Source of the DNA: Escherichia phage brachmannus
Direction: 5' to 3' (one strand)
DNA length: 51,540 nt
Sequence record: ON711395.1
Below, one piece after another: positions 5,375 to 49,440 of the stretch (its first letter is position 1; the number at the start of each line of letters is the position of its first letter). The notes beneath the pieces are model-generated. The model searched no databases, was not told the origin of the DNA, and saw only the letters and a program-made list of their open reading frames with translations. The position numbers and the translations under genes are program-made.

Positions 5375-5884
5375 ATGGCTAAAATTGGAGCAAGTTATTT
5401 TGACACTATGGCGCGTGCGCTTCCTGGTCAGGTATCCGACACGTCAGCATATAACATCGACGGCGCTTGCGTTCTTGACAAGGAAGACGGCATCCCAATC
5501 CTGGTTGGCGTGGCTGTTAAGCTAAAAGGCGTTGACTCAATGGGTAATAAGCTGATCGACGCTATTTCTGGTGGTGGTGATGTTCCTTATGGCGTTGGCG
5601 TTCGTTCGCACTTTCAAACTACGGCTGATAATGGTCGAATGGTTTATGAGGCTGGCGGCGGAATCAACGTTATGACTGAGGGCCGTGTCTGGATGATTGG
5701 CGATGATTCCGATAAAAGCAAAAAGCCAGAATATCGTGATCCTGTAAAAATTGATGAAAACTCTGGCAAGGTGAAAAGTGCTGGATCTATCAATACAAAT
5801 TGGGTTTACACTGGCGATAAAACCACTTTTGGAACTGGCAATAATATGTTGACTTTGTTTGAAGTTCAGGTCTTCCCAAGCTAA
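5375..5884 (+). CDS. capsid-associated structural protein (possible decoration protein)
   Basis: 169 aa, strong RBS, MAK N-terminus, paralogous to next gene (shared YNIDG and RGRVW motifs), followed by intrinsic terminator. Confidence 0.4.
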   Translation: MAKIGASYFDTMARALPGQVSDTSAYNIDGACVLDKEDGIPILVGVAVKLKGVDSMGNKLIDAISGGGDVPYGVGVRSHFQTTADNGRMVYEAGGGINVMTEGRVWMIGDDSDKSKKPEYRDPVKIDENSGKVKSAGSINTNWVYTGDKTTFGTGNNMLTLFEVQVFPS

Positions 5885-5934: not shown

Positions 5935-6723
5935 ATGGCTAAAGACTATTCATCTGTTATGGGCCTTTCTTGCCCTGGTTGTTTGGTTGATTCTACTCGC
6001 TACAATATTGATGGCACTGGTGTTTGCGGATCTGAGTCGATCATTGCTGGCAAGGTTGTTTTCTTCAAAGAGAGAGTAGAAGGTTATAACATATTTGTTG
6101 ATCAAAAAGAGGATGATGCAGTAGTTGCTGGTATTGCGCTAAGGAGCAACATAACAACAACAGTTAACGAGGAGGGCGGGTACTCTGACTACAAAGAAGG
6201 TGATCCTATTAGCGTTGTAACTCGTGGTCGCGTGTGGGTGTTAACTGAAAGTATTGATGAAGCTCCTTCACACGGTGAAAAAGTATATGTTAATAACGAT
6301 GGATTTGTTGGTAAGTCCGGCGACCAGGTTGTTGATGGGTGGATTTTTACAGGTGATTTTATGAAATTTGACAGTAGCATTAACATTGTAGGGATTCATA
6401 TCAAACCTGTAATAGTACATGTTCAAAAGTTAACAGCGGCTATTATTGAAGATGTTGATGGTAACAAGCCTGATGGAAACAGACCAAACAATGAGCCTGT
6501 TAATCTCAAGGTTACTGTAGAGCCTGAATATGCAACAGATAAAACTGGAACATGGGAGATTTCATTAGGAGGAGAATACGCATCAATTTCGCCAAGTGGT
6601 GACACGGCGCAAGTAACGCCATCAAGCAATGGTGATGTATATGTAAACTGGATGGCAAATGACGGATCTGGTGTATCTGACACATTTATCATCAACTTTG
6701 TAGATCCAGAGCCTGGCCCTTAA
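5935..6723 (+). CDS. capsid-associated structural protein with Ig-like C-terminal domain (paralog of previous)
   Basis: 262 aa; N-terminal similarity to 5375-5884 ORF; C-terminal beta-rich Ig-like region. Confidence 0.4.
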   Translation: MAKDYSSVMGLSCPGCLVDSTRYNIDGTGVCGSESIIAGKVVFFKERVEGYNIFVDQKEDDAVVAGIALRSNITTTVNEEGGYSDYKEGDPISVVTRGRVWVLTESIDEAPSHGEKVYVNNDGFVGKSGDQVVDGWIFTGDFMKFDSSINIVGIHIKPVIVHVQKLTAAIIEDVDGNKPDGNRPNNEPVNLKVTVEPEYATDKTGTWEISLGGEYASISPSGDTAQVTPSSNGDVYVNWMANDGSGVSDTFIINFVDPEPGP

Positions 6724-8934: not shown

Positions 8935-9370
8935 TAACTATAAGATCAGGGAATTTCACGGTGATATAAGCAGGTGGATTGATTCAGTAAGCAGCGGCCT
9001 TGTTGATTGCGTTGAAATGTTCGCGACAAACGTCCACGAGGATCTTGTAAATCGCTCGCCAGTTGATACGGGCCGATATAAAGCCAACTGGCAGATAACA
9101 GCAAACAAGCCGCCGCTGTATGCGCTCAACCAATACGATCGCGATGGTAGTAAAACCATTGCAGAAGGCAAGCGAGCAATATATGCAATCATGCGTGGTG
9201 GTGGCGCGGTGCGGTCAATCTATTTTTCAAACATGCTCATTTACGCCAATGCGCTTGAATACGGTCATTCAAAACAAGCGCCGTCCGGCGTACTTGGAAT
9301 CGTGGCGGTAAAGCTGCGATCTTATATGGCTAAGGCAATAAAGGATTCGAGGGCAAAAAATGCACTATGA
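8927..9370 (+). CDS. HK97 gp10-like neck / tail-completion protein
   Basis: ATG 8927 after AGGAGG (track start 8918 is TTG); SPVDTGRYKANW motif reminiscent of HK97 gp10 family. Confidence 0.45.
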   Translation: MADNYKIREFHGDISRWIDSVSSGLVDCVEMFATNVHEDLVNRSPVDTGRYKANWQITANKPPLYALNQYDRDGSKTIAEGKRAIYAIMRGGGAVRSIYFSNMLIYANALEYGHSKQAPSGVLGIVAVKLRSYMAKAIKDSRAKNAL

Positions 9371-9761
9371 TTTAATGTTGGCGGCAAGAAAGGCGCTGGC
9401 GGCTGAATATGAATCACGATTTAAGATAGCCTATGAAAACGTTGATTTTGTGCCGCCTGGAGATGGTTCTATGTGGTTAAAATTTAACTACATGGAAGCA
9501 GACACGGATCGCATATCTCTTGATAGAAAATGTGTTTCTTATATCGGTTTGGTTCAGGTTGGAATTGTCATTCCTCCTGGCGGTGGCACTGATAACGCTC
9601 GTTTACTGGCTAAAGAGATTGCGAGATTTTTCTATGATGGTAGAATGTTTGAAACTGGCTATATTAGCGAGGGAGCAAACGTCCACGCATTACTAAAAAG
9701 TGAAACAGGTTGGTTCTTGCCGATCCGTTTCAGTGTTAGGCTTGACACAAAGGAGGAATAA
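9360..9761 (+). CDS. putative tail terminator protein
   Basis: 133 aa immediately upstream of major tail protein. Confidence 0.35.
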   Translation: MHYDLMLAARKALAAEYESRFKIAYENVDFVPPGDGSMWLKFNYMEADTDRISLDRKCVSYIGLVQVGIVIPPGGGTDNARLLAKEIARFFYDGRMFETGYISEGANVHALLKSETGWFLPIRFSVRLDTKEE

Positions 9762-9763
9762 TC

Positions 9764-10426
9764 ATGCACTTGCCTAATGGTTCTCAAATTTTCATCGGCG
9801 TTAATATGGGTGAGCCAATTAGCGCTACTCAAATCACCAATGCTGATAATCCTGTTTTTACAGCTGCAAACACTCAAAGCATCAAAAAAGGCGCTTATGT
9901 TCTTATTGAAACATCTTCTTGGGGCAAACTTGTTAGTCGAGTGCTTCGAGTTAAGGAAGTATCAGATAATGTAAGTGTTACTCTTGAAGGTGTTAGCACT
10001 AAAGATACAAACGTATTTCCAGAAGGACAGAACACAGCAACGTTCCGAGAAGTGAAATCTTGGGTGGAGGTTCCTTGCGTACAGGATCTTGCGCAGGACG
10101 GCGGCGAGCAACAGTATTACACTTATCAGTGTTTGGCTGATGACCAGGAACAGCAGTTGCCGACATACAAGAGCGCCGTTTCTCTTACCTATACTTTCGC
10201 GCATGAATATGATAATCCGATTTATCCGATCTTGCGCAAGGCTGAGGAATCCGGCGACGTAACCGCTTTGCGTATGTACGTGCCGAAAGCTAAAGAGATG
10301 CGTTGCTGGGCTGGCGTATTGTCTTTTAATGACATTCCGCAAACCACTATGAACGAAATGGAAACTGTTTCCCTTTCCGTATCTCTGAAAGGTCGATTCA
10401 CGTTCTTACCTTCTGACGTTAAGTAA
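9764..10426 (+). CDS. major tail protein
   Basis: 220 aa, RBS AAGGAGG, followed by strong intrinsic terminator, directly upstream of chaperone and tape measure genes. Confidence 0.6.
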   Translation: MHLPNGSQIFIGVNMGEPISATQITNADNPVFTAANTQSIKKGAYVLIETSSWGKLVSRVLRVKEVSDNVSVTLEGVSTKDTNVFPEGQNTATFREVKSWVEVPCVQDLAQDGGEQQYYTYQCLADDQEQQLPTYKSAVSLTYTFAHEYDNPIYPILRKAEESGDVTALRMYVPKAKEMRCWAGVLSFNDIPQTTMNEMETVSLSVSLKGRFTFLPSDVK

Positions 10427-16367: not shown

Positions 16368-16386
16368 TAGCACAATATGTTAAAGC
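16368..16386 (+). promoter_or_regulatory. conserved motif variant TAGCACAATATGTTAAAGC + 8-bp hairpin + TACAAT upstream of HNH gene
   Basis: same cassette architecture as early-gene copies. Confidence 0.5.
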
Positions 16387-16427
16387 GAAAACGGATTTTC
16401 GCTTTACAATTAATTAAGGAGATGATC

Positions 16428-16904
16428 ATGTGGCGTGATATTTTTTATTATAATGACGGTAAGTTATTTTGGGCTGTAGACGTAGGAAGAAGGATAAAGA
16501 AAGGAAGTGAGGCAGGAAGCGTAAGCAAAAGCAAGAAGAGTGGAGAAAGGGTTAGAATATCAATTGATGGAGAAAGATACTACAGGAGCAGGATAGTTTG
16601 GGAAATTCATAATGGAGAAATACCGCATGGAATGCAAGTTGATCACATAGATCACAACACAATGAACGACAATATTTCAAACTTAAGACTTGTTAGAATG
16701 AGTGTTAACAACAAGAATAAGTCGCTTTACAGGAACAGCAAGACGGGAATTACTGGGGTAAACTTTAGTCGCGGAAAATGGATTGCAAGAGCAAAGATTG
16801 ATGGTGTTAGGCATGAATTTTACTTTGATTCATTTCAGGATGCGGCAGAAAAGAGGATAGAGATTGAAGTTTTAAACAAATTCCACATAAACCACGGAAA
16901 GTAG
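16428..16904 (+). CDS. HNH homing endonuclease with AP2-like DNA-binding domain
   Basis: HNH motif VDHIDHN...NLRL; AT-rich with AGA/AGG arginine codons unlike surrounding genes; inserted between tail genes I and J; paralog at 35773-36246. Confidence 0.8.
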   Translation: MWRDIFYYNDGKLFWAVDVGRRIKKGSEAGSVSKSKKSGERVRISIDGERYYRSRIVWEIHNGEIPHGMQVDHIDHNTMNDNISNLRLVRMSVNNKNKSLYRNSKTGITGVNFSRGKWIARAKIDGVRHEFYFDSFQDAAEKRIEIEVLNKFHINHGK

Positions 16905-21823: not shown

Positions 21824-22193
21824 CTTGTTATTTTTTGTTTTCCAGTGTTATCGAATTTAAGACGGCGCAAATTTGGCGCAAATTTTAACCAACACAAGAG
21901 CAATAAACAACCAATAAAATAGATATATGCATATAAAATCAATAGTTTATTTATTTATGTATGTATATTTGTTTTTTCTTGTTATCTGTGTTTCTTGTGG
22001 TTTTGGTTGTTTGTGGTGATTTTTCTTTCTGAGTATCTGCATGTGCCATCATTCATGTGTATGTATATAATCCGGCGTATCTGAGAGAACAAGGGAACAA
22101 GAAAAATAACACATGTTAATCATTAACTTACGTGTCAGATTTGTTTTCTTGCCATCTGAGAACGTTTAGAAAACAGAAAAAACAAAACAACTA

Positions 22194-35603: not shown

Positions 35604-35783
35604 TTCGATACGCTTTACAGTAACCAACAAAACGCCGTCTTCATCACACAAATTATGCTCTGATATATCAAACGCTCGCATGTCAGAATGAATGAGCGTT
35701 AACATTGCGTGCATGAAGTCGTCATGTGAGATTTGAGAAGTGGCGCAAAATTTAAGAATTTCATCTATCAGTTTACTTTCCAT
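35601..35783 (-). CDS. hypothetical protein
   Basis: about 60 aa from internal ATG (MESKLIDE...). Confidence 0.35.
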   Translation of the reverse strand: MESKLIDEILKFCATSQISHDDFMHAMLTLIHSDMRAFDISEHNLCDEDGVLLVTVKRIE

Positions 35784-36246
35784 GATTTTTGTGGTAGCCA
35801 AATTTAACCTCCGCCTGTTCCCTTGCCTTAATTGCATCATCAAGACTTAAAAAATATCCTAAATGCACGCTCTTACCGTTATCATATATAGTTGCGTGCC
35901 ATCTTTTGTTTTTCTTATTCCAGCAAACACCAACTCGACCAGAGTTATTTCTTTTTAGTAGAGATACGTTTTTGCTGTTATCTAATCTTGATGCAAGCCT
36001 TAGATTTTCAATTCTGTTATCGCTCCTATTGTGCCATATATGGTCTATTTCCATTCCTTCTGGTATTTTTCCATTGTGCATTTCCCATATTATCCTATGC
36101 GCCAAAAACAATACACCATTATACCTTATTCTCACATATCCATTTTCACATACACATCCCGCAACGCTTCCAGGCTTTGCTTTCCCTCTTCTGTTTCTCC
36201 ATCTCAATATTCCATTGTCATATATAAATACTTCATTCCAATCCAT
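35773..36246 (-). CDS. HNH homing endonuclease with AP2-like domain (paralog of 16428-16904)
   Basis: EIDHIWHN...NLRL HNH motif; AT-rich, AGA/AGG codons; similar to first HNH gene. Confidence 0.8.
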   Translation of the reverse strand: MDWNEVFIYDNGILRWRNRRGKAKPGSVAGCVCENGYVRIRYNGVLFLAHRIIWEMHNGKIPEGMEIDHIWHNRSDNRIENLRLASRLDNSKNVSLLKRNNSGRVGVCWNKKNKRWHATIYDNGKSVHLGYFLSLDDAIKAREQAEVKFGYHKNHGK

Positions 36247-40384: not shown

Positions 40385-40597
40385 TCATTTATTATTTTTC
40401 ATCTTAAATTTATGGCCTGGAACACCAGCACCAATATAGCCATCGTTGTATCCCATTAAATAAAGGCGAAGGCCATTATCTGAAATTACATGAGGATATT
40501 CTTTGAGATTTCCCATTAGCGGGTATTCTTTTCCGCGCGTAAATCTCCAAGTTGAGTCATAAGTTTCTACGCATTTAAGTTTTAATTGCTTTGCCAT
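40385..40597 (-). CDS. hypothetical protein
   Basis: 70 aa; TAATG overlap with upstream gene. Confidence 0.45.
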   Translation of the reverse strand: MAKQLKLKCVETYDSTWRFTRGKEYPLMGNLKEYPHVISDNGLRLYLMGYNDGYIGAGVPGHKFKMKNNK

Positions 40598-40794
40598 TAG
40601 ATGATCTCCATGTATGTTTCAAAGCCATTTAACTTGAACAGGTCGTTTTCACATTTGCGAACGTTCCAAGTTAGCCCTGAGTGGTACGCCTCCATATCAT
40701 CAAGGTCAATGGTGATTTCAGCACCTTTCTTAAACAAACCTTTTTCGTGAGACTTGTCGCGCTTAACAACTTTAACATCAACCTGATTTTCCAT
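40597..40794 (-). CDS. hypothetical protein
   Basis: 65 aa. Confidence 0.45.
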   Translation of the reverse strand: MENQVDVKVVKRDKSHEKGLFKKGAEITIDLDDMEAYHSGLTWNVRKCENDLFKLNGFETYMEII

Positions 40795-42173: not shown

Positions 42174-42713
42174 TTTGACGGTTAGCACCAGGATTGTGAT
42201 CGAAATAATCAAAAGTAATCATTCGTAATCAAATCACGTCAAAATGATGATTGCCTTTGCAAATTTGATGAGAAAAGTAATCACGTTTAATCATTGGTTG
42301 CAGGGGAGATAGTGAAACCTTCCCCTCTTGCCTCACTTTTCCGCCCGGCTGTCAGTGGTTGTTATGTTCCGTTCCCGCCTGTTCTTTTGTTGACCTTCCG
42401 CAAAATACGATAACAAAAAATAACAAACAGTACCTATATAATACATTGAAAAATAAGTATTATTTATTTATATGTATCTATATATTCTCTTTTGTTATCT
42501 TGGTTATTGTGGTATTTGGTGGGGTATATAGTTTTTGTGTATCTGTATGTGTGTATGGGTATGTAGGGGGCATATATATCTATATGGCACTTTCCGCGAG
42601 AAAACTTCGATAACAGGCAATGATAACATTGATTTATAAGGAAAAATAACGCCCATATTGTTATTGTGCCACCATATAAAATTGATAAAACACGCGGGAA
42701 CAAGAAAAAACAG

Positions 42714-44062: not shown

Positions 44063-44323
44063 ATGTTAAAACTTGCTGACATTAAATTCCAGATCACCTT
44101 CGAATCTCGCGGCATTGGTCATTACATTTTTACCGATGAAAAAACATGCCATAAGGTTGATATGAATAGCGACAAACTAAGCCCATCAGACATGGAGATT
44201 GAACACTTCATTGATGCGCACAATACGCAGTACAACGCACTTAAAGACTATGGCTATGCAATGCCAGGATATACCAGCTTCCACTACAAGCCATATAAAG
44301 GCCAGGTGTTGCCAGTGCGCTAA
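44063..44323 (+). CDS. hypothetical protein
   Basis: 86 aa. Confidence 0.45.
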   Translation: MLKLADIKFQITFESRGIGHYIFTDEKTCHKVDMNSDKLSPSDMEIEHFIDAHNTQYNALKDYGYAMPGYTSFHYKPYKGQVLPVR

Positions 44324-44344
44324 CCGGAACGCGCAGAGATTCCG

Positions 44345-44956
44345 ATGGTCGAGATGAAAACATGCGACTACAAAAAGCTGTGGTGCTTAAGTGTGGACAA
44401 TATCAAGTATCCGATCACGTTCTACACGGTTGGTAATTCAACGATTCGATTCACATCGCGCGACAATGGCGTTTATAGCGATGGTACGAAATCAGAGTTG
44501 AAAGTTGATTTCTTTGTCAACGGTCACAATAGATACAATCCGCACAACGAAAAAGATAAAGTGTATTACGTGGAAGACATTACAAAACACTTGTTTGGAG
44601 AAACTCCATTCGGCGGCGGTAAGACGTCAATTCAAAAAATCATTGGCGATGAGATCCACAAAGCGGCTGCCGAAATGAAAGCGCCTGGAGGCTGGCGCAT
44701 TGACAAGAGCGCATTTGCAAATCAAGAAATCGTAACGCAGGGCGCAATTGAAGATATGCCAGTTGCAGCCACTCTAAAAGGAGTCCGGCTTGATGACGGC
44801 ACCTGGTATGAAGTAACGGCTACACCAAAGACGATCGAGATTCATGATGACGTTGTTATCCTTCTGCTTCACTACGGCGGCTATAAAAACCGGACGATTG
44901 CAGGTGAGACCAGCATTAAGCGCGGAACGATGGTTAAGTGGAAGGTGAAGATTTGA
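44345..44956 (+). CDS. hypothetical protein
   Basis: 203 aa. Confidence 0.5.
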   Translation: MVEMKTCDYKKLWCLSVDNIKYPITFYTVGNSTIRFTSRDNGVYSDGTKSELKVDFFVNGHNRYNPHNEKDKVYYVEDITKHLFGETPFGGGKTSIQKIIGDEIHKAAAEMKAPGGWRIDKSAFANQEIVTQGAIEDMPVAATLKGVRLDDGTWYEVTATPKTIEIHDDVVILLLHYGGYKNRTIAGETSIKRGTMVKWKVKI

Positions 44957-45180: not shown

Positions 45181-45199
45181 AATAGCACTTTTTGTTAAA
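45181..45199 (+). promoter_or_regulatory. conserved motif + hairpin with TATAAT in loop
   Basis: GGCCAGGTATAATGGCC. Confidence 0.6.
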
Positions 45200-45254
45200 A
45201 CTCAAATGTGGGGCCAGGTATAATGGCCTCACTTTCAACGAAGGAGATAAAACG

Positions 45255-45473
45255 ATGTACATTAAAAAGAAGATGAAATGCGTTTCCGTTAACTACGCTT
45301 GCTCTGGCATGTTCAAGCCTGGCGAAATCTATACGGCGCAAAAACTGAAATCATCAACCGGATCTTTTTACGTGAGCAATAGTAAGGGGCATCGCATGTT
45401 CCTGAACGGCGGCGAAGGCACTAAGGTTATGGCACACGCTATGGTAATGGCTGAATTTGAGGAGGTGAAATAA
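45255..45473 (+). CDS. hypothetical protein (paralog of next gene)
   Basis: ATG 45255 with AAGGAG RBS; shares LNGGEGT...AEFEEV pattern with 45473-45706. Confidence 0.5.
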   Translation: MYIKKKMKCVSVNYACSGMFKPGEIYTAQKLKSSTGSFYVSNSKGHRMFLNGGEGTKVMAHAMVMAEFEEVK

Positions 45474-45706
45474 TGATCATTGAAAACAACTTTCTTTGCG
45501 TTAAGAGCAATAGACCATTCTTCACGCCTGGCAAGGTGTACCAGGGCAAGAAGGACACAAGAGATGGTCACTCTTATCATGTTCACTGCAACAACGGATA
45601 CAAGTTTTACCTTAACGGCGAGAATGGAACTGAGATCGTTGCGTTTGAAAACGTAGTTGCAGAGTTCGAGCAGGTTACAGACGCGGAATTTGAGGAAGTG
45701 CAATAA
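45473..45706 (+). CDS. hypothetical protein (paralog of previous gene)
   Basis: 77 aa; tandem duplicate. Confidence 0.5.
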   Translation: MIIENNFLCVKSNRPFFTPGKVYQGKKDTRDGHSYHVHCNNGYKFYLNGENGTEIVAFENVVAEFEQVTDAEFEEVQ

Positions 45707-45888
45707 TGGATGATTTTACTCGGCTTGTTCTCGGCTGGATTGTGTTTCTTTTTGCGTGGCTTATCCACTGTGCGAGGCATAAATTCAGACTGAGCTATGA
45801 TAATTCATTCGTTATGACCTGCTTCAGTATTCCAGGATGGATCATTTTGCTTGTGGCTACTGCTGAATACATCCATAAAACATTTTAA
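45706..45888 (+). CDS. small membrane protein
   Basis: 60 aa with two hydrophobic segments. Confidence 0.4.
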   Translation: MDDFTRLVLGWIVFLFAWLIHCARHKFRLSYDNSFVMTCFSIPGWIILLVATAEYIHKTF

Positions 45889-45898
45889 GGATTAATAT

Positions 45899-46441
45899 AT
45901 GAAAAAATACACTTTCGAACTATGGGGCAAGAAATACGAATTAATGACCAGCAAGCCTATTGTTATCGTTGATCTGGATGGCACGCTATCTGACGGATCG
46001 CATCGTTTGCACTTGCTGCCAACCGAAAACTTGCACCTTACGGAATCGTGGAGCGAATTTAACAGGGCAGCCGCCGGAGATTCACCGATTAAGAGCACGA
46101 TTGCTGTTATCAATGGTTTGTGGGTATCTGGCTTTGCCGTCGTTATTCTTACCGGACGCAGTGACGAGGTTCGCTATGAAACCTGCAAATGGTTGAATGA
46201 GAACGGCGTGAAGTTTGACGAAATCATCATGCGCCGCCAGGAGGACAACCGAAAGGATACGGTTATTAAAGAAGAAGCCTTGCGCGCTATTGGCCTGGAC
46301 AACATTGTTTGCGCCTTTGACGATTCTCCGAACGTGGTTAAGCACTTCCGCAGCTTGGGGATAACAACCTATCAGGTCACGGAATACGACAAGCCTCACG
46401 CTCACCTGCAATCTCACGGCGTGGAGGAGTTGCAGAAATGA
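45899..46441 (+). CDS. HAD-superfamily phosphatase (PNK 3-prime-phosphatase-like)
   Basis: motif I VIVDLDGTLSD; small HAD fold size. Confidence 0.55.
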   Translation: MKKYTFELWGKKYELMTSKPIVIVDLDGTLSDGSHRLHLLPTENLHLTESWSEFNRAAAGDSPIKSTIAVINGLWVSGFAVVILTGRSDEVRYETCKWLNENGVKFDEIIMRRQEDNRKDTVIKEEALRAIGLDNIVCAFDDSPNVVKHFRSLGITTYQVTEYDKPHAHLQSHGVEELQK

Positions 46442-49149: not shown

Positions 49150-49440
49150 ATGGCAAACAAAACTTACCGCAAACTACTGGTTAACGCTTTTGAAAACATC
49201 GCGCAGTGTAACAAGTGGAACGACTCTAAACACTCGCCAATCACAATGAAGCGCGCCGGATTCAAAAATACTCGTTCATGGGCGCGAGCTTTCGCAGCTT
49301 GCTATATGCCGGATGGCGGACTAGGGGTGATGAACGATTTTTTGATCAACATGATAGAGGAAGCTGCGCGAGAGGATCGACCGCTGACACAGCGAGATTT
49401 TGACGACTTCGCGCGCGATGAGCTTTACTATCTGAGCTAA
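49150..49440 (+). CDS. hypothetical protein
   Basis: 96 aa; stop followed by TAG of motif copy. Confidence 0.45.
   Translation: MANKTYRKLLVNAFENIAQCNKWNDSKHSPITMKRAGFKNTRSWARAFAACYMPDGGLGVMNDFLINMIEEAAREDRPLTQRDFDDFARDELYYLS

What the first reader, a model, noticed from the sequence alone, without database searches (positions are those of the whole stretch)
45255..45706. Tandem paralogous small early genes
Two adjacent genes encode related 72-77 aa proteins sharing the pattern PG(E/K)(I/V)Y...LNGE(G/N)GT...AEFE(E/Q)V. Tandem duplication with divergence is a frequent signature of genes under diversifying selection in phage-host conflict.
Basis: seen in the sequence. Interest (0 to 1): 0.35.

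Follow-up and report, generated by a model that had tools for sequence, protein, structure and literature searches.

The report
Paired small accessory genes, T1-like phage
Two neighbouring genes of a T1-like coliphage really do encode related small all-beta proteins of unknown function, but they are old, swappable, dispensable accessory gene cassettes kept under ordinary purifying selection, not a fresh duplication that is diverging fast.

Summary
Genes A (45255-45473, 72 aa) and B (45473-45706, 77 aa) are true paralogues: BLASTP gives 35% identity at E=8e-15, and both are predicted with the same six-strand all-beta fold.

The window is a Warwickvirus-like phage (Drexlerviridae, Tempevirinae). 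The genes are nearly identical to "hypothetical proteins" in many GenBank phages, where both are already filed under pVOG VOG9991.

- Across 29 loci, the slot upstream of the polynucleotide-kinase/phosphatase gene holds A alone (most phages), B alone, A+B, or other alleles (A2, A3, one chimera).
- A is a pseudogene in two isolates.
- Every arrangement uses the same promoter-like leader and the same 18-nt 3' end (EFEEVK). That 3' end also contains the ribosome-binding site for the next gene and forms a direct repeat flanking B.
- B is as far from A as distant family members in other phages are.
- Within each type dN/dS is 0.09-0.17, the same as the neighbouring enzyme gene.

So this is cassette exchange of old paralogues, not rapid diversifying evolution.

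Function is unknown. The fold is at best SH3-like, with no significant PDB match. The closest characterised analogue is Gp54, a small non-essential beta-barrel trigger of CapRel, whose homologue lies elsewhere in this window next to a third remote paralogue. The find is ordinary but tidy, and interest is low to moderate.

The parts
45182..45254 (+). Promoter-like leader of the A-B unit. It contains the 20-nt motif ATAGCACTTTTTGTTAAAAC (45182-45201, which includes the TAG stop of the upstream 50-aa gene), a short GGCC...GGCC inverted repeat around a TATAAT (45219-45224), and the Shine-Dalgarno AAGGAG (45241-45246).
   Evidence: Promoter scan, (TTAAAA-18-TATAAT). The motif occurs 13 times in the window against 0 expected. 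The same leader precedes whichever family gene comes first (A, A2 or B) in related phages. The same architecture lies upstream of the Gp54 homologue.
45255..45473 (+). Gene A: 72 aa, basic (pI 9.5), all-beta small protein, 'A1' allele.
   Evidence: It is 91-100% identical in about 18 loci. dN/dS is 0.16.
45473..45706 (+). Gene B: 77 aa, acidic (pI 5.0) paralogue of A. Its start overlaps A's stop (TAATG). Its own C-terminal strand AEFEQV is followed by an extra TD-AEFEEV tail.
   Evidence: It is 70-97% identical in 9 loci. dN/dS is 0.09.
45453..45470 (+). Copy 1 of the 18-nt 3' linker GAATTTGAGGAGGTGAAA (EFEEVK). It contains GAGGAGGT, the Shine-Dalgarno sequence for gene B.
45686..45703 (+). 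Copy 2 of the linker, GAATTTGAGGAAGTGCAA (EFEEVQ), a direct repeat that flanks B. It contains the Shine-Dalgarno-like GAGGAAGT for the next gene.
   Evidence: The two copies match at 16/18 positions, against 53% identity for the codon-aligned A-B DNA overall. In phage tuinn the copies match 18/18.
45706..45888 (+). Downstream 60-aa gene for a predicted two-helix membrane protein, translationally coupled to B (TAATG). It is one of several alternative cassettes found in this position.
   Evidence: It is present in this window, Jahat, L018 and L049. Most relatives have the soluble 65-74-aa gene 'D' here instead.
40385..40597 (-). Third, remote family member 'C' (70 aa) in the leftward gene block, directly downstream of the Gp54 homologue.
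   Evidence: hmmsearch with the family profile gives E=5e-5 among 364 ORFs. hhalign gives probability 55%, P=1.2e-4 over 47 columns. It shares the weak hits to phrog_10169 and phrog_3523 with A and B. It is present or absent among relatives.

Best explanation
A and B are two old paralogues of one small family (65-81 aa) of all-beta, probably SH3-like proteins, found mainly in Tempevirinae (T1-like) phages of E. coli, Shigella and Salmonella.

Shown:
- They are the first two genes of a transcription unit that starts at a repeated promoter-like motif and runs on into a small membrane-protein gene and the pnk/phosphatase gene. All start and stop codons in the A-B-membrane gene run are coupled.
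- The slot is a cassette site. Related phages carry A alone, B alone, A+B, A2+B, A3, a chimeric allele, or a broken A.
- All versions keep the same leader at the 5' side.
- All versions keep the same 18-nt sequence at the 3' side. This sequence encodes the end of the last beta strand (EFEEVK) and also carries the ribosome-binding site for whatever gene follows.
- Each allele type is under purifying selection, and the gene is dispensable for growth in the laboratory.

Inferred:
- Because the 18-nt sequence is repeated on both sides of B, recombination between the copies removes or inserts B without breaking either reading frame or the translational coupling. The T1-like phages compared here (T1, FritzSarasin) encode an exonuclease and an annealing/recombination protein.
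- The proteins are cytoplasmic binding modules made from host-RNA-polymerase promoters soon after infection.
- They bind a host protein (host take-over or anti-defence) or a phage protein.
- The different alleles are specificity variants that pay off only in some hosts.
For: Paralogy and fold.

Phage identity and position.

Cassette behaviour:
- 97 GenBank records hold a family member. 29 have a B-type copy, 24 have two copies, and 68 have the A type only.
- maps the slot in 27 loci.
- One search shows allele A3 in the same slot.
- One search shows chimera P0018 and the identity matrix.
- One search shows A with a nonsense codon in phage 2019SD1 and a 13-nt deletion in Fulano1.

Shared leader and 3' linker.

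Purifying selection.

No signal peptide or membrane segment is apparent by eye in A or B (sequences; no predictor was run).

Leader as a host-polymerase promoter, by analogy: the Gp54 homologue in this window has the same leader architecture. In phage Bas11 the native upstream region of gene 54 drives expression in uninfected E. coli, and point mutations there lower expression (PMC11578894).

Binding-module idea:
- The weak PDB fold hits are dominated by SH3 domains and the SH3-like domain of Pif1 helicases.
- Gp54, a small non-essential six-strand SH3-like barrel from the same phage group, is known to bind a host immunity protein directly.
Against: - No function is known for any member. All database families hit are 'unknown function'.
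- The SH3 assignment is weak: best Foldseek E is 0.5-0.6 and TM is at most 0.46.
- No partner, expression timing or phenotype has been measured.
- The charge difference between A (+5.7) and the window's B (-5.2) is not conserved across B orthologues; Henu8 B is about neutral. It cannot be used to argue for different targets.
- An ancient tandem duplication followed by differential loss, and a later joining of two alleles by recombination, cannot be told apart with these data.
- Gene-wide dN/dS does not exclude positive selection at a few sites.
Confidence: 0.55

Rival explanations
1. A recent duplication happened in place in this phage lineage, and the two copies have since diverged quickly under diversifying (positive) selection in an arms race.
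For: The genes are adjacent, have the same orientation and are homologous. The slot is variable among relatives. Small early accessory genes are typical arms-race genes (general knowledge).
Against: - dN/dS is 0.09-0.17 within each type, like the neighbouring enzyme gene.
- A and B are only 36% identical, while the flanks of the same phages are 90-97% identical.
- B is as distant from A as members from other phages are.
- B occurs alone behind the same leader in Jahat and Henu8.
- B orthologues themselves span 70-97% identity, so B is old.
Confidence: 0.08
2. A and B are divergent versions of the stand-alone SH3 protein (Pfam DUF7244) that sits next to the lysis cassette in other Drexlerviridae, and they help the endolysin by binding the cell wall.
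For: - A shared sequence pattern is visible by eye: KC(I/V)..N...F..G..Y ... LNG ... EF.E(I/V).
- Distant family members P0038 and P0043 have DUF7244 as their only Pfam hit (E about 0.1, 13 bits).
- hhalign of the family against a DUF7244 alignment gives P=0.0014 over the N-terminal 38 columns.
- The B model hits a DUF7244 protein in BFVD with TM 0.55.
- Tempevirinae lack DUF7244 (PMC13164509).
Against: - hhalign probability is only 18%.
- A and B give no Pfam hit at E<=1.
- The genes lie about 11 kb from holin, endolysin and spanin, in a different transcription block.
- There is no signal sequence for export to the periplasm.
- The lysis role of DUF7244 is itself only a hypothesis.
Confidence: 0.07
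3. A and B are small nucleic-acid-binding barrels (Sm-, KOW- or Tudor-like) that adjust phage or host transcription or translation.
For: A-type proteins are basic (pI 9.0-9.5). Weak fold hits include KOW and ribosomal S12 barrels and the SH3-like DNA-contacting domain of Pif1.
Against: B-type proteins are acidic to neutral (pI 5.0-7.0). No nucleic-acid-binding family is hit. The fold matches are not significant.
Confidence: 0.12
4. A and B are triggers rather than weapons. Like Gp54, their main observable role is to be sensed by a host immunity protein, and allele turnover reflects escape from that sensing.
For: - Gp54 of Bas11 is a small non-essential barrel of the same phage group and size, and it is sensed directly by CapRel-SJ46.
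- Very close Gp54 homologues differ in whether they trigger, and loss-of-function mutants escape (PMC11578894).
- A is lost or broken in several isolates.
Against: There is no sequence relation to Gp54 (hhalign probability 0.2%). The Gp54 structure 9AXB is not among the top 50 fold matches of either model. Purifying selection implies the proteins also do something useful for the phage.
Confidence: 0.12

Closest known systems
Gp54 of phage Bas11 (Pfam PF25180, PDB 9AXB/9ERV), trigger of the CapRel-SJ46 toxin-antitoxin defence
   Same: - It comes from the same phage group (Tempevirinae).
- It is 66 aa against 72-77 aa here.
- It is a six-strand beta-barrel with loose SH3 likeness; Gp54 resembles the RecD SH3 domain, and A and B weakly resemble the SH3-like domain of Pif1, a related helicase.
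- It is non-essential and has no known function of its own.
- It has its own promoter with the same leader architecture.
- It sits in a variable neighbourhood.
- A homologue is present in this window at 40597-40794, next to the remote family member C.
   Different: There is no detectable sequence relation (hhalign probability 0.2%; no Pfam hit). The solved Gp54 structure is not among the top 50 fold matches. It lies in a different gene block on the other strand. Nothing is known about whether A or B is sensed by any defence system.
DUF7244 (PF23896), stand-alone SH3 protein of the Drexlerviridae lysis module (T1 gene ST14; PMC13164509)
   Same: It is a small all-beta protein of T1-like phages. 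It shares the motif pattern KC(I/V)..N, G..Y, LNG and EF.E. Links through sequence and profile comparison are weak. It is present in some subfamilies and absent in others, and absent where the A/B family is present.
   Different: It is 57 aa and lacks the extra hairpin between LNG and the last strand. It is always beside holin and endolysin, whereas A and B are beside pnk, 11 kb away. Membership is not met by Pfam score, and the profile match is only suggestive.
PHROG 9122 / 10169 and pVOG VOG9991 (unannotated phage protein clusters)
   Same: B hits phrog_9122 at E=2.4e-10 and A at 1.8e-4. Both hit phrog_10169. The orthologues in phage tuinn are both labelled VOG9991.
   Different: These are clusters without a function, so membership says nothing about mechanism.
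Mosaic accessory-gene modules of tailed phages joined at short conserved boundary sequences (modular theory of phage evolution)
   Same: Alternative genes occupy one slot between conserved flanks. Junctions fall at short shared sequences at gene boundaries. Chimeric alleles occur.
   Different: Here the alternative cassettes are homologous to one another. The 3' boundary sequence lies inside the coding region, where it encodes the last strand and also carries the next gene's ribosome-binding site.

Membership tests
pVOG VOG9991 / PHROG 9122-10169 (unannotated clusters) | Significant profile match | tested here: met
   B against phrog_9122 E=2.4e-10; A E=1.8e-4; both hit phrog_10169 at about 5e-4; both tuinn orthologues are annotated VOG9991.
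Pfam DUF7244 (PF23896, SH3 clan) | hmmscan score at or above the gathering cut-off (27 bits) | tested here: not met
   A and B give no Pfam hit at E<=1; distant members P0038 and P0043 reach only 13 bits (E about 0.1). T1 ST14, used as a positive control, scores 99.8 bits.
Pfam DUF7244 (PF23896, SH3 clan) | Profile-profile homology | tested here: inconclusive
   hhalign probability 17.8%, P=0.0014, 38 N-terminal columns.
Pfam DUF7244 (PF23896, SH3 clan) | Gene located between the DNA-repair exonuclease and the holin (lysis module) | tested here: not met
   In the closely related phage FritzSarasin the exonuclease is directly followed by holin at 33.7 kb, and the A orthologue lies at 45.3 kb beside pnk.
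Gp54 (PF25180), CapRel trigger | Sequence or profile match to Gp54 | tested here: not met
   no hit; hhalign probability 0.2%. The true homologue in the window, 40597-40794, scores 130.8 bits and matches PDB 9AXB at E=3e-17.
Gp54 (PF25180), CapRel trigger | Six-strand SH3-like beta-barrel of about 65 aa | tested here: inconclusive
   The models have six strands. However, 9AXB is not in the top 50 Foldseek PDB matches. No direct superposition could be run.
Gp54 (PF25180), CapRel trigger | Binds and activates CapRel-SJ46 | not testable with these tools
   This needs co-expression toxicity or binding assays.
SH3-fold small beta-barrels | Significant structural match to a solved SH3 domain | tested here: inconclusive
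   The best matches are Pif1 SH3-like and classical SH3 domains, but E is 0.5-3 and TM 0.3-0.46.
Recent tandem duplicates under diversifying selection | Elevated dN/dS (near or above 1) among orthologues | tested here: not met
   A 0.16, B 0.09, A2 0.12; controls pnk 0.10 and D 0.11 (Nei-Gojobori, gene-wide only).
Recent tandem duplicates under diversifying selection | The two copies are each other's closest relatives | tested here: not met
   A-B 36-38% identity; A-P0043 36%; A-A2 58%; A-A3 51%. In the neighbour-joining tree B groups with the distant members, not with A.

The most novel reading that the evidence does not exclude
The A/B/C proteins, DUF7244 and perhaps Gp54 may all belong to one fast-evolving superfamily of tiny SH3-like barrels. 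T1-like phages would then carry these as interchangeable 'specificity cartridges', each binding a different host defence or take-over target. The cartridges would be shuffled between phages through a built-in linker that keeps the reading frame and the downstream ribosome-binding site intact. A+B phages would then be double-armed variants.
Probability: 0.2. Interest if true: 0.55.

Novelty: new member of a known kind. Interest (0 to 1): 0.3.

Why it matters
T1-like phages are common laboratory contaminants and candidate therapy phages, yet about half their genes are uncharacterised. This pair marks a well-defined, easily engineered accessory slot with at least four natural alleles, natural knock-outs and a natural two-copy state.

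If the proteins bind host defence or take-over targets, as the neighbouring Gp54 does, the natural variants are ready-made material for finding the partner.

The shared 3' linker doubles as coding sequence and ribosome-binding site. It is a neat small example of how phages can swap genes without breaking operon expression.

Otherwise the finding is ordinary. The genes are already in GenBank as hypothetical proteins, and their relatedness is already recorded in pVOGs.

Tried and rejected
1. Pfam, NCBIfam and PHROG scans of A, B and their neighbours gave only 'unknown function' families.

2. The deep profile search of 1.84 billion representatives found only 21 hits at E<=0.001.
   - The small hits are family members.
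   - The large multi-stretch hits (P0028, 3288 aa, and others) were not looked at.
   - In the PDB profile search the 'Cake' designer propellers scored only as the sum of repeated stretches, none passing on its own. I treat those as chance hairpin-motif matches. I assumed the same for the large hits.

3. Foldseek against the PDB with both models gave no significant match.

4. By eye, T1 ST65 (148 aa, directly upstream of T1 pnk) looked like the same fold. It is not significant by HMM or Pfam, so I left it as a lead.

5. The tonnikala 145-aa 'A-D fusion' comes from a 1-nt difference in the A-rich overlap GATGAAAACAAATAA. It is not shared by the same-species phage FritzSarasin. I read it as a single-genome indel or sequencing error, not a meaningful fusion.

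6. The idea that A (basic) and B (acidic) have complementary charges was dropped, because B orthologues vary from pI 5.0 to 7.0.

7. Literature searches for expression timing or phenotypes of these genes found nothing specific.

8. The antisense ORF 45368-45703 (111 aa) was rejected as a gene, because the conservation pattern follows the + strand frames.

Full report
**What the window is.** The region 44300-46500 matches 122 GenBank phage records. The best matches are 96-97% identical: Escherichia phages tuinn, ityhuna, vB-Eco-KMB46 and others. Tuinn is classified as Drexlerviridae; Tempevirinae; Warwickvirus. The window has the same layout as the BASEL phage FritzSarasin. Terminase and structural genes come first, followed by recombination, replication and lysis genes. 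A leftward block of small genes (about 35-42 kb) follows, and then a rightward block of about 30 small genes (42.7-51.5 kb) that ends at the genome end before the terminase. The finding lies in that last block. The block corresponds to T1 genes ST77-ST55, which also contain pnk.

**Checking the observation.**
- ORF listing gives gene A at 45255-45473 (72 aa) and gene B at 45473-45706 (77 aa), both on the + strand.
- A has a good Shine-Dalgarno sequence (AAGGAG, 45241-45246). B's ATG overlaps A's TAA, and the next gene's ATG overlaps B's TAA.
- BLASTP of A against B gives 35% identity over 71 residues, E=8e-15.
- Among 364 ORFs of the window compared all against all, this is one of three clear paralogue pairs.
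- AlphaFold2 models built with family alignments are confident (B pLDDT 84; A pLDDT 92). Both have the same order of six beta strands.
- The conserved AEFE(E/Q)V forms the last strand, so it is part of the fold rather than a floppy tail.
- The B model matches predicted structures of A-type proteins from phages tonn and tonnikala with TM 0.82-0.83.

**How wide the family is.**
- Word-seeded searches found only close relatives of B (7 clusters) and of A (18 clusters, many truncated).
- A full HMMER profile search of 1.84 billion representative proteins found just 21 hits at E<=0.001. The genuine ones are small proteins of 56-78 aa.
- These include a further allele, P0029 (A3), and two distant members, P0038 and P0043.
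- tblastn of B against 50,697 phage genomes found 97 records, all Escherichia, Shigella or Salmonella phages.
- Of those, 29 carry a B-type copy, 24 have two hits (A plus B), and 68 have only the A type at about 35% identity.
- The family is therefore small and mostly confined to Tempevirinae. The fold recurs among many uncharacterised small proteins of other T1-like and unrelated siphophages in BFVD.

**The locus is a cassette site.** I mapped the stretch between the upstream 'BIG' gene (44345-44956) and pnk (45899-46441) in 27 loci, and added L049 afterwards.
- *Slot contents.* The slot holds A1 alone in most phages; A1+B in the window and tuinn; A2+B in L002 and L016-L018 (A2 is 58% identical to A1); B alone in Jahat and Henu8; and A3 alone in L049.
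- *Broken copies.* A carries a nonsense codon (Gly36 to stop) in Shigella phage 2019SD1. In Fulano1 it has a 13-nt deletion while B stays intact.
- *Chimera.* P0018 has an A2-like N-terminal half and an A1-like C-terminal half.
- *Neighbouring slots.* These vary too: a 50-aa gene or a 67-aa membrane protein upstream; and the soluble gene D, a variant of D, a 61-aa gene, or the 60-aa membrane protein downstream.

**Junctions.**
- The same roughly 75-nt leader precedes whichever family gene is first, be it A1, A2 or B.
- Every family gene ends in GAATTTGAGGA(A/G)GTGAAA (EFEEVK). The start of the next gene follows directly, whichever gene that is.
- That 18-mer contains GAGGAGGT or GAGGAAGT 5-6 nt before the next ATG, so it also serves as the ribosome-binding site of the downstream gene (sequence reading).
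- B has its own terminal strand AEFEQ(V/I), followed by TD and a second AEFEEV(K). B therefore carries the family linker as an added tail.
- In the window the two linker copies (45453-45470 and 45686-45703) match at 16/18 positions, and in tuinn at 18/18. Codon-aligned A-B DNA identity overall is 53%, and the mean identity of random 18-mer pairs is 4.6/18.
- Recombination between these direct repeats would delete B precisely and give the common A-only arrangement with the tail ...EFEEVKDENK. The reverse event would insert B. This step is inferred, not observed.

**Selection.** Nei-Gojobori estimates over unique sequences give the following ratios of mean dN to mean dS:

| Gene | dN/dS | Unique sequences |
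|---|---|---|
| A | 0.16 | 16 |
| B | 0.09 | 8 |
| A2 | 0.12 | 3 |
| D | 0.11 | 15 |
| pnk | 0.10 | 4 |

Each type is under purifying selection at the same level as its neighbours. In the identity matrix and neighbour-joining tree, B is 36-38% identical to A1, A2 and A3. That is the same distance as P0038 and P0043 from other phages (28-36%), and B does not nest within the A group. The split between A and B is therefore old. Either an ancient tandem pair has been lost differentially, or two alleles were joined later. The data do not decide between these.

**Promoter-like leader.**
- The first 20 nt of the leader, ATAGCACTTTTTGTTAAAAC, occur 13 times in the window with at most 3 mismatches, against 0 expected. 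Apart from two minus-strand copies inside the structural genes (6741, 10492), they are oriented with the local genes.
- In the copies I read, a GC-rich inverted repeat and a -10-like hexamer follow the motif. For gene A this hexamer is TATAAT at 45219-45224.
- The next + strand copy downstream is at 49440. A and B are thus the promoter-proximal genes of a unit that includes the membrane-protein gene and pnk.
- The same architecture lies upstream of the Gp54 homologue.
- In Bas11 the native region upstream of gene 54 drives expression in uninfected E. coli, and escape mutations there lower expression (PMC11578894).
- By analogy these leaders are host-polymerase promoters, which fits 'early'. 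No timing data were found.

**What the proteins are.**
- There is no Pfam or NCBIfam hit. The PHROG hits have unknown function.
- Foldseek against the PDB gave no significant match for either model. The best E is 0.5-0.6 and TM is at most 0.46. The weak matches are mainly SH3 domains and the SH3-like domain of Pif1 helicases.
- A recent paper describes a stand-alone SH3 protein (DUF7244) beside the lysis cassette of many Drexlerviridae. It is not mapped to Tempevirinae (PMC13164509).
- T1 ST14 is that protein. It shares a visible motif pattern with A and B. The formal tests are only suggestive: 13 bits for the distant members, hhalign probability 18% with P=0.0014, and TM 0.55.
- A and B lie 11 kb from the lysis genes, and by eye they lack an export signal. 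I do not file them under DUF7244.

**A third copy and the Gp54 neighbour.**
- The family profile also picks up ORF 40385-40597 on the minus strand (70 aa, 'C') at E=5e-5. hhalign gives probability 55% and P=1.2e-4.
- C is itself present or absent among relatives.
- Directly upstream of C is a homologue of Gp54 (PF25180, 130.8 bits; PDB 9AXB at E=3e-17).
- Gp54 of Bas11 is a 66-aa, six-strand, SH3-like barrel. It is non-essential, has unknown function, and is bound directly by the CapRel-SJ46 immunity protein.
- It is the closest characterised analogue of A and B in size, predicted fold class, dispensability and phage group. There is no sequence relation, however (hhalign probability 0.2%), and 9AXB is not among the top fold matches.

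**Verdict.** The pair is real and homologous. It is best described as two old alleles of a small, dispensable, SH3-like accessory protein family sitting together in a cassette slot. The slot exchanges its content through a shared promoter-leader and a shared 3' linker that doubles as a ribosome-binding site. Purifying selection shows the proteins do something useful. Their patchy presence shows the benefit is conditional. The most likely role, as inference only, is binding of a host or phage protein early in infection. The genes are already catalogued as hypothetical proteins and co-clustered in pVOGs, so novelty and interest are modest.

Noticed in passing
window 6741, 10492, 29088, 31577, 32648, 38258, 38932, 40850, 42155, 43502, 43965, 45182, 49440 (20-nt starts): The 20-nt motif ATAGCACTTTTTGTTAAAAC occurs 13 times (at most 3 mismatches; 0 expected by chance). 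In the copies I read, a GC-rich inverted repeat and a -10-like hexamer follow it. It looks like the phage's standard promoter or boundary element. Two copies (6741, 10492) lie on the minus strand inside the + strand structural gene block.
   Followed up: partly
window 40597-40794 (- strand): This is a homologue of Gp54 (Pfam PF25180 'Phage antiviral trigger protein Gp54', 130.8 bits; PDB 9AXB/9ERV at E=3e-17), the small beta-barrel that activates the CapRel-SJ46 defence in phage Bas11. At position 7 it has Val, the residue that abolished triggering in the A7V mutant. At position 25 it has Ala, where triggering Gp54 has Ile and I25V also abolished triggering. It may therefore be a non-triggering variant.
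   Followed up: partly
window 44063-44956 (+ strand): The gene upstream of the finding is a single 297-aa CDS in phage tuinn and other relatives. Here it has an in-frame TGA at 44321-44323 (TCA in tuinn). This splits it into 86-aa and 203-aa ORFs. It could be a pseudogene, a readthrough, a restart or a sequencing error. Separately, Shigella phage 2019SD1 (L008/L014) has an internal duplication of the same gene.
   Followed up: partly
window 5375-5884 vs 5935-6723, and 16377-16904 vs 35773-36246: There are two other paralogue pairs in the window. One is adjacent + strand genes in the head region (30% identity, E=7e-13). The other is a dispersed pair on opposite strands (39% identity over 160 aa, E=2e-28).
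   Followed up: no
window 45899-46441 (+ strand): The gene annotated 'polynucleotide kinase' in relatives is 180 aa here. It matches only the HAD phosphatase domain of PNKP (PF25109) and has no kinase P-loop domain hit. Some relatives (tonnikala, L049) have a longer 237-aa version.
   Followed up: no
L013 (tonnikala) 1501-1938; protein P0003 (121 aa, seen on 275 contigs): In relatives, the family gene overlaps the start of downstream gene D in the A-rich sequence GATGAAAACAAATAA. Single-base differences there fuse A to D (tonnikala) or extend B into an alternative frame (P0003). The site may be prone to indels or sequencing errors.
   Followed up: partly
window 21947-22026 and 42460-42520: Related T-rich repeats (TTATTTATTTATGTATGTAT...TTGTTATCTGTG...) lie in two regions. 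The second falls in the gap between the leftward and rightward small-gene blocks. They might be regulatory or replication-related elements.
   Followed up: no
L028 (phage T1) 4418-4864, gene ST65: The 148-aa gene directly upstream of pnk in T1 (phrog_10642) has an N-terminal 75 residues that resemble the A/B motif pattern by eye. The resemblance is not significant by HMM or Pfam. It may be a positional counterpart carrying an added helical domain.
   Followed up: partly
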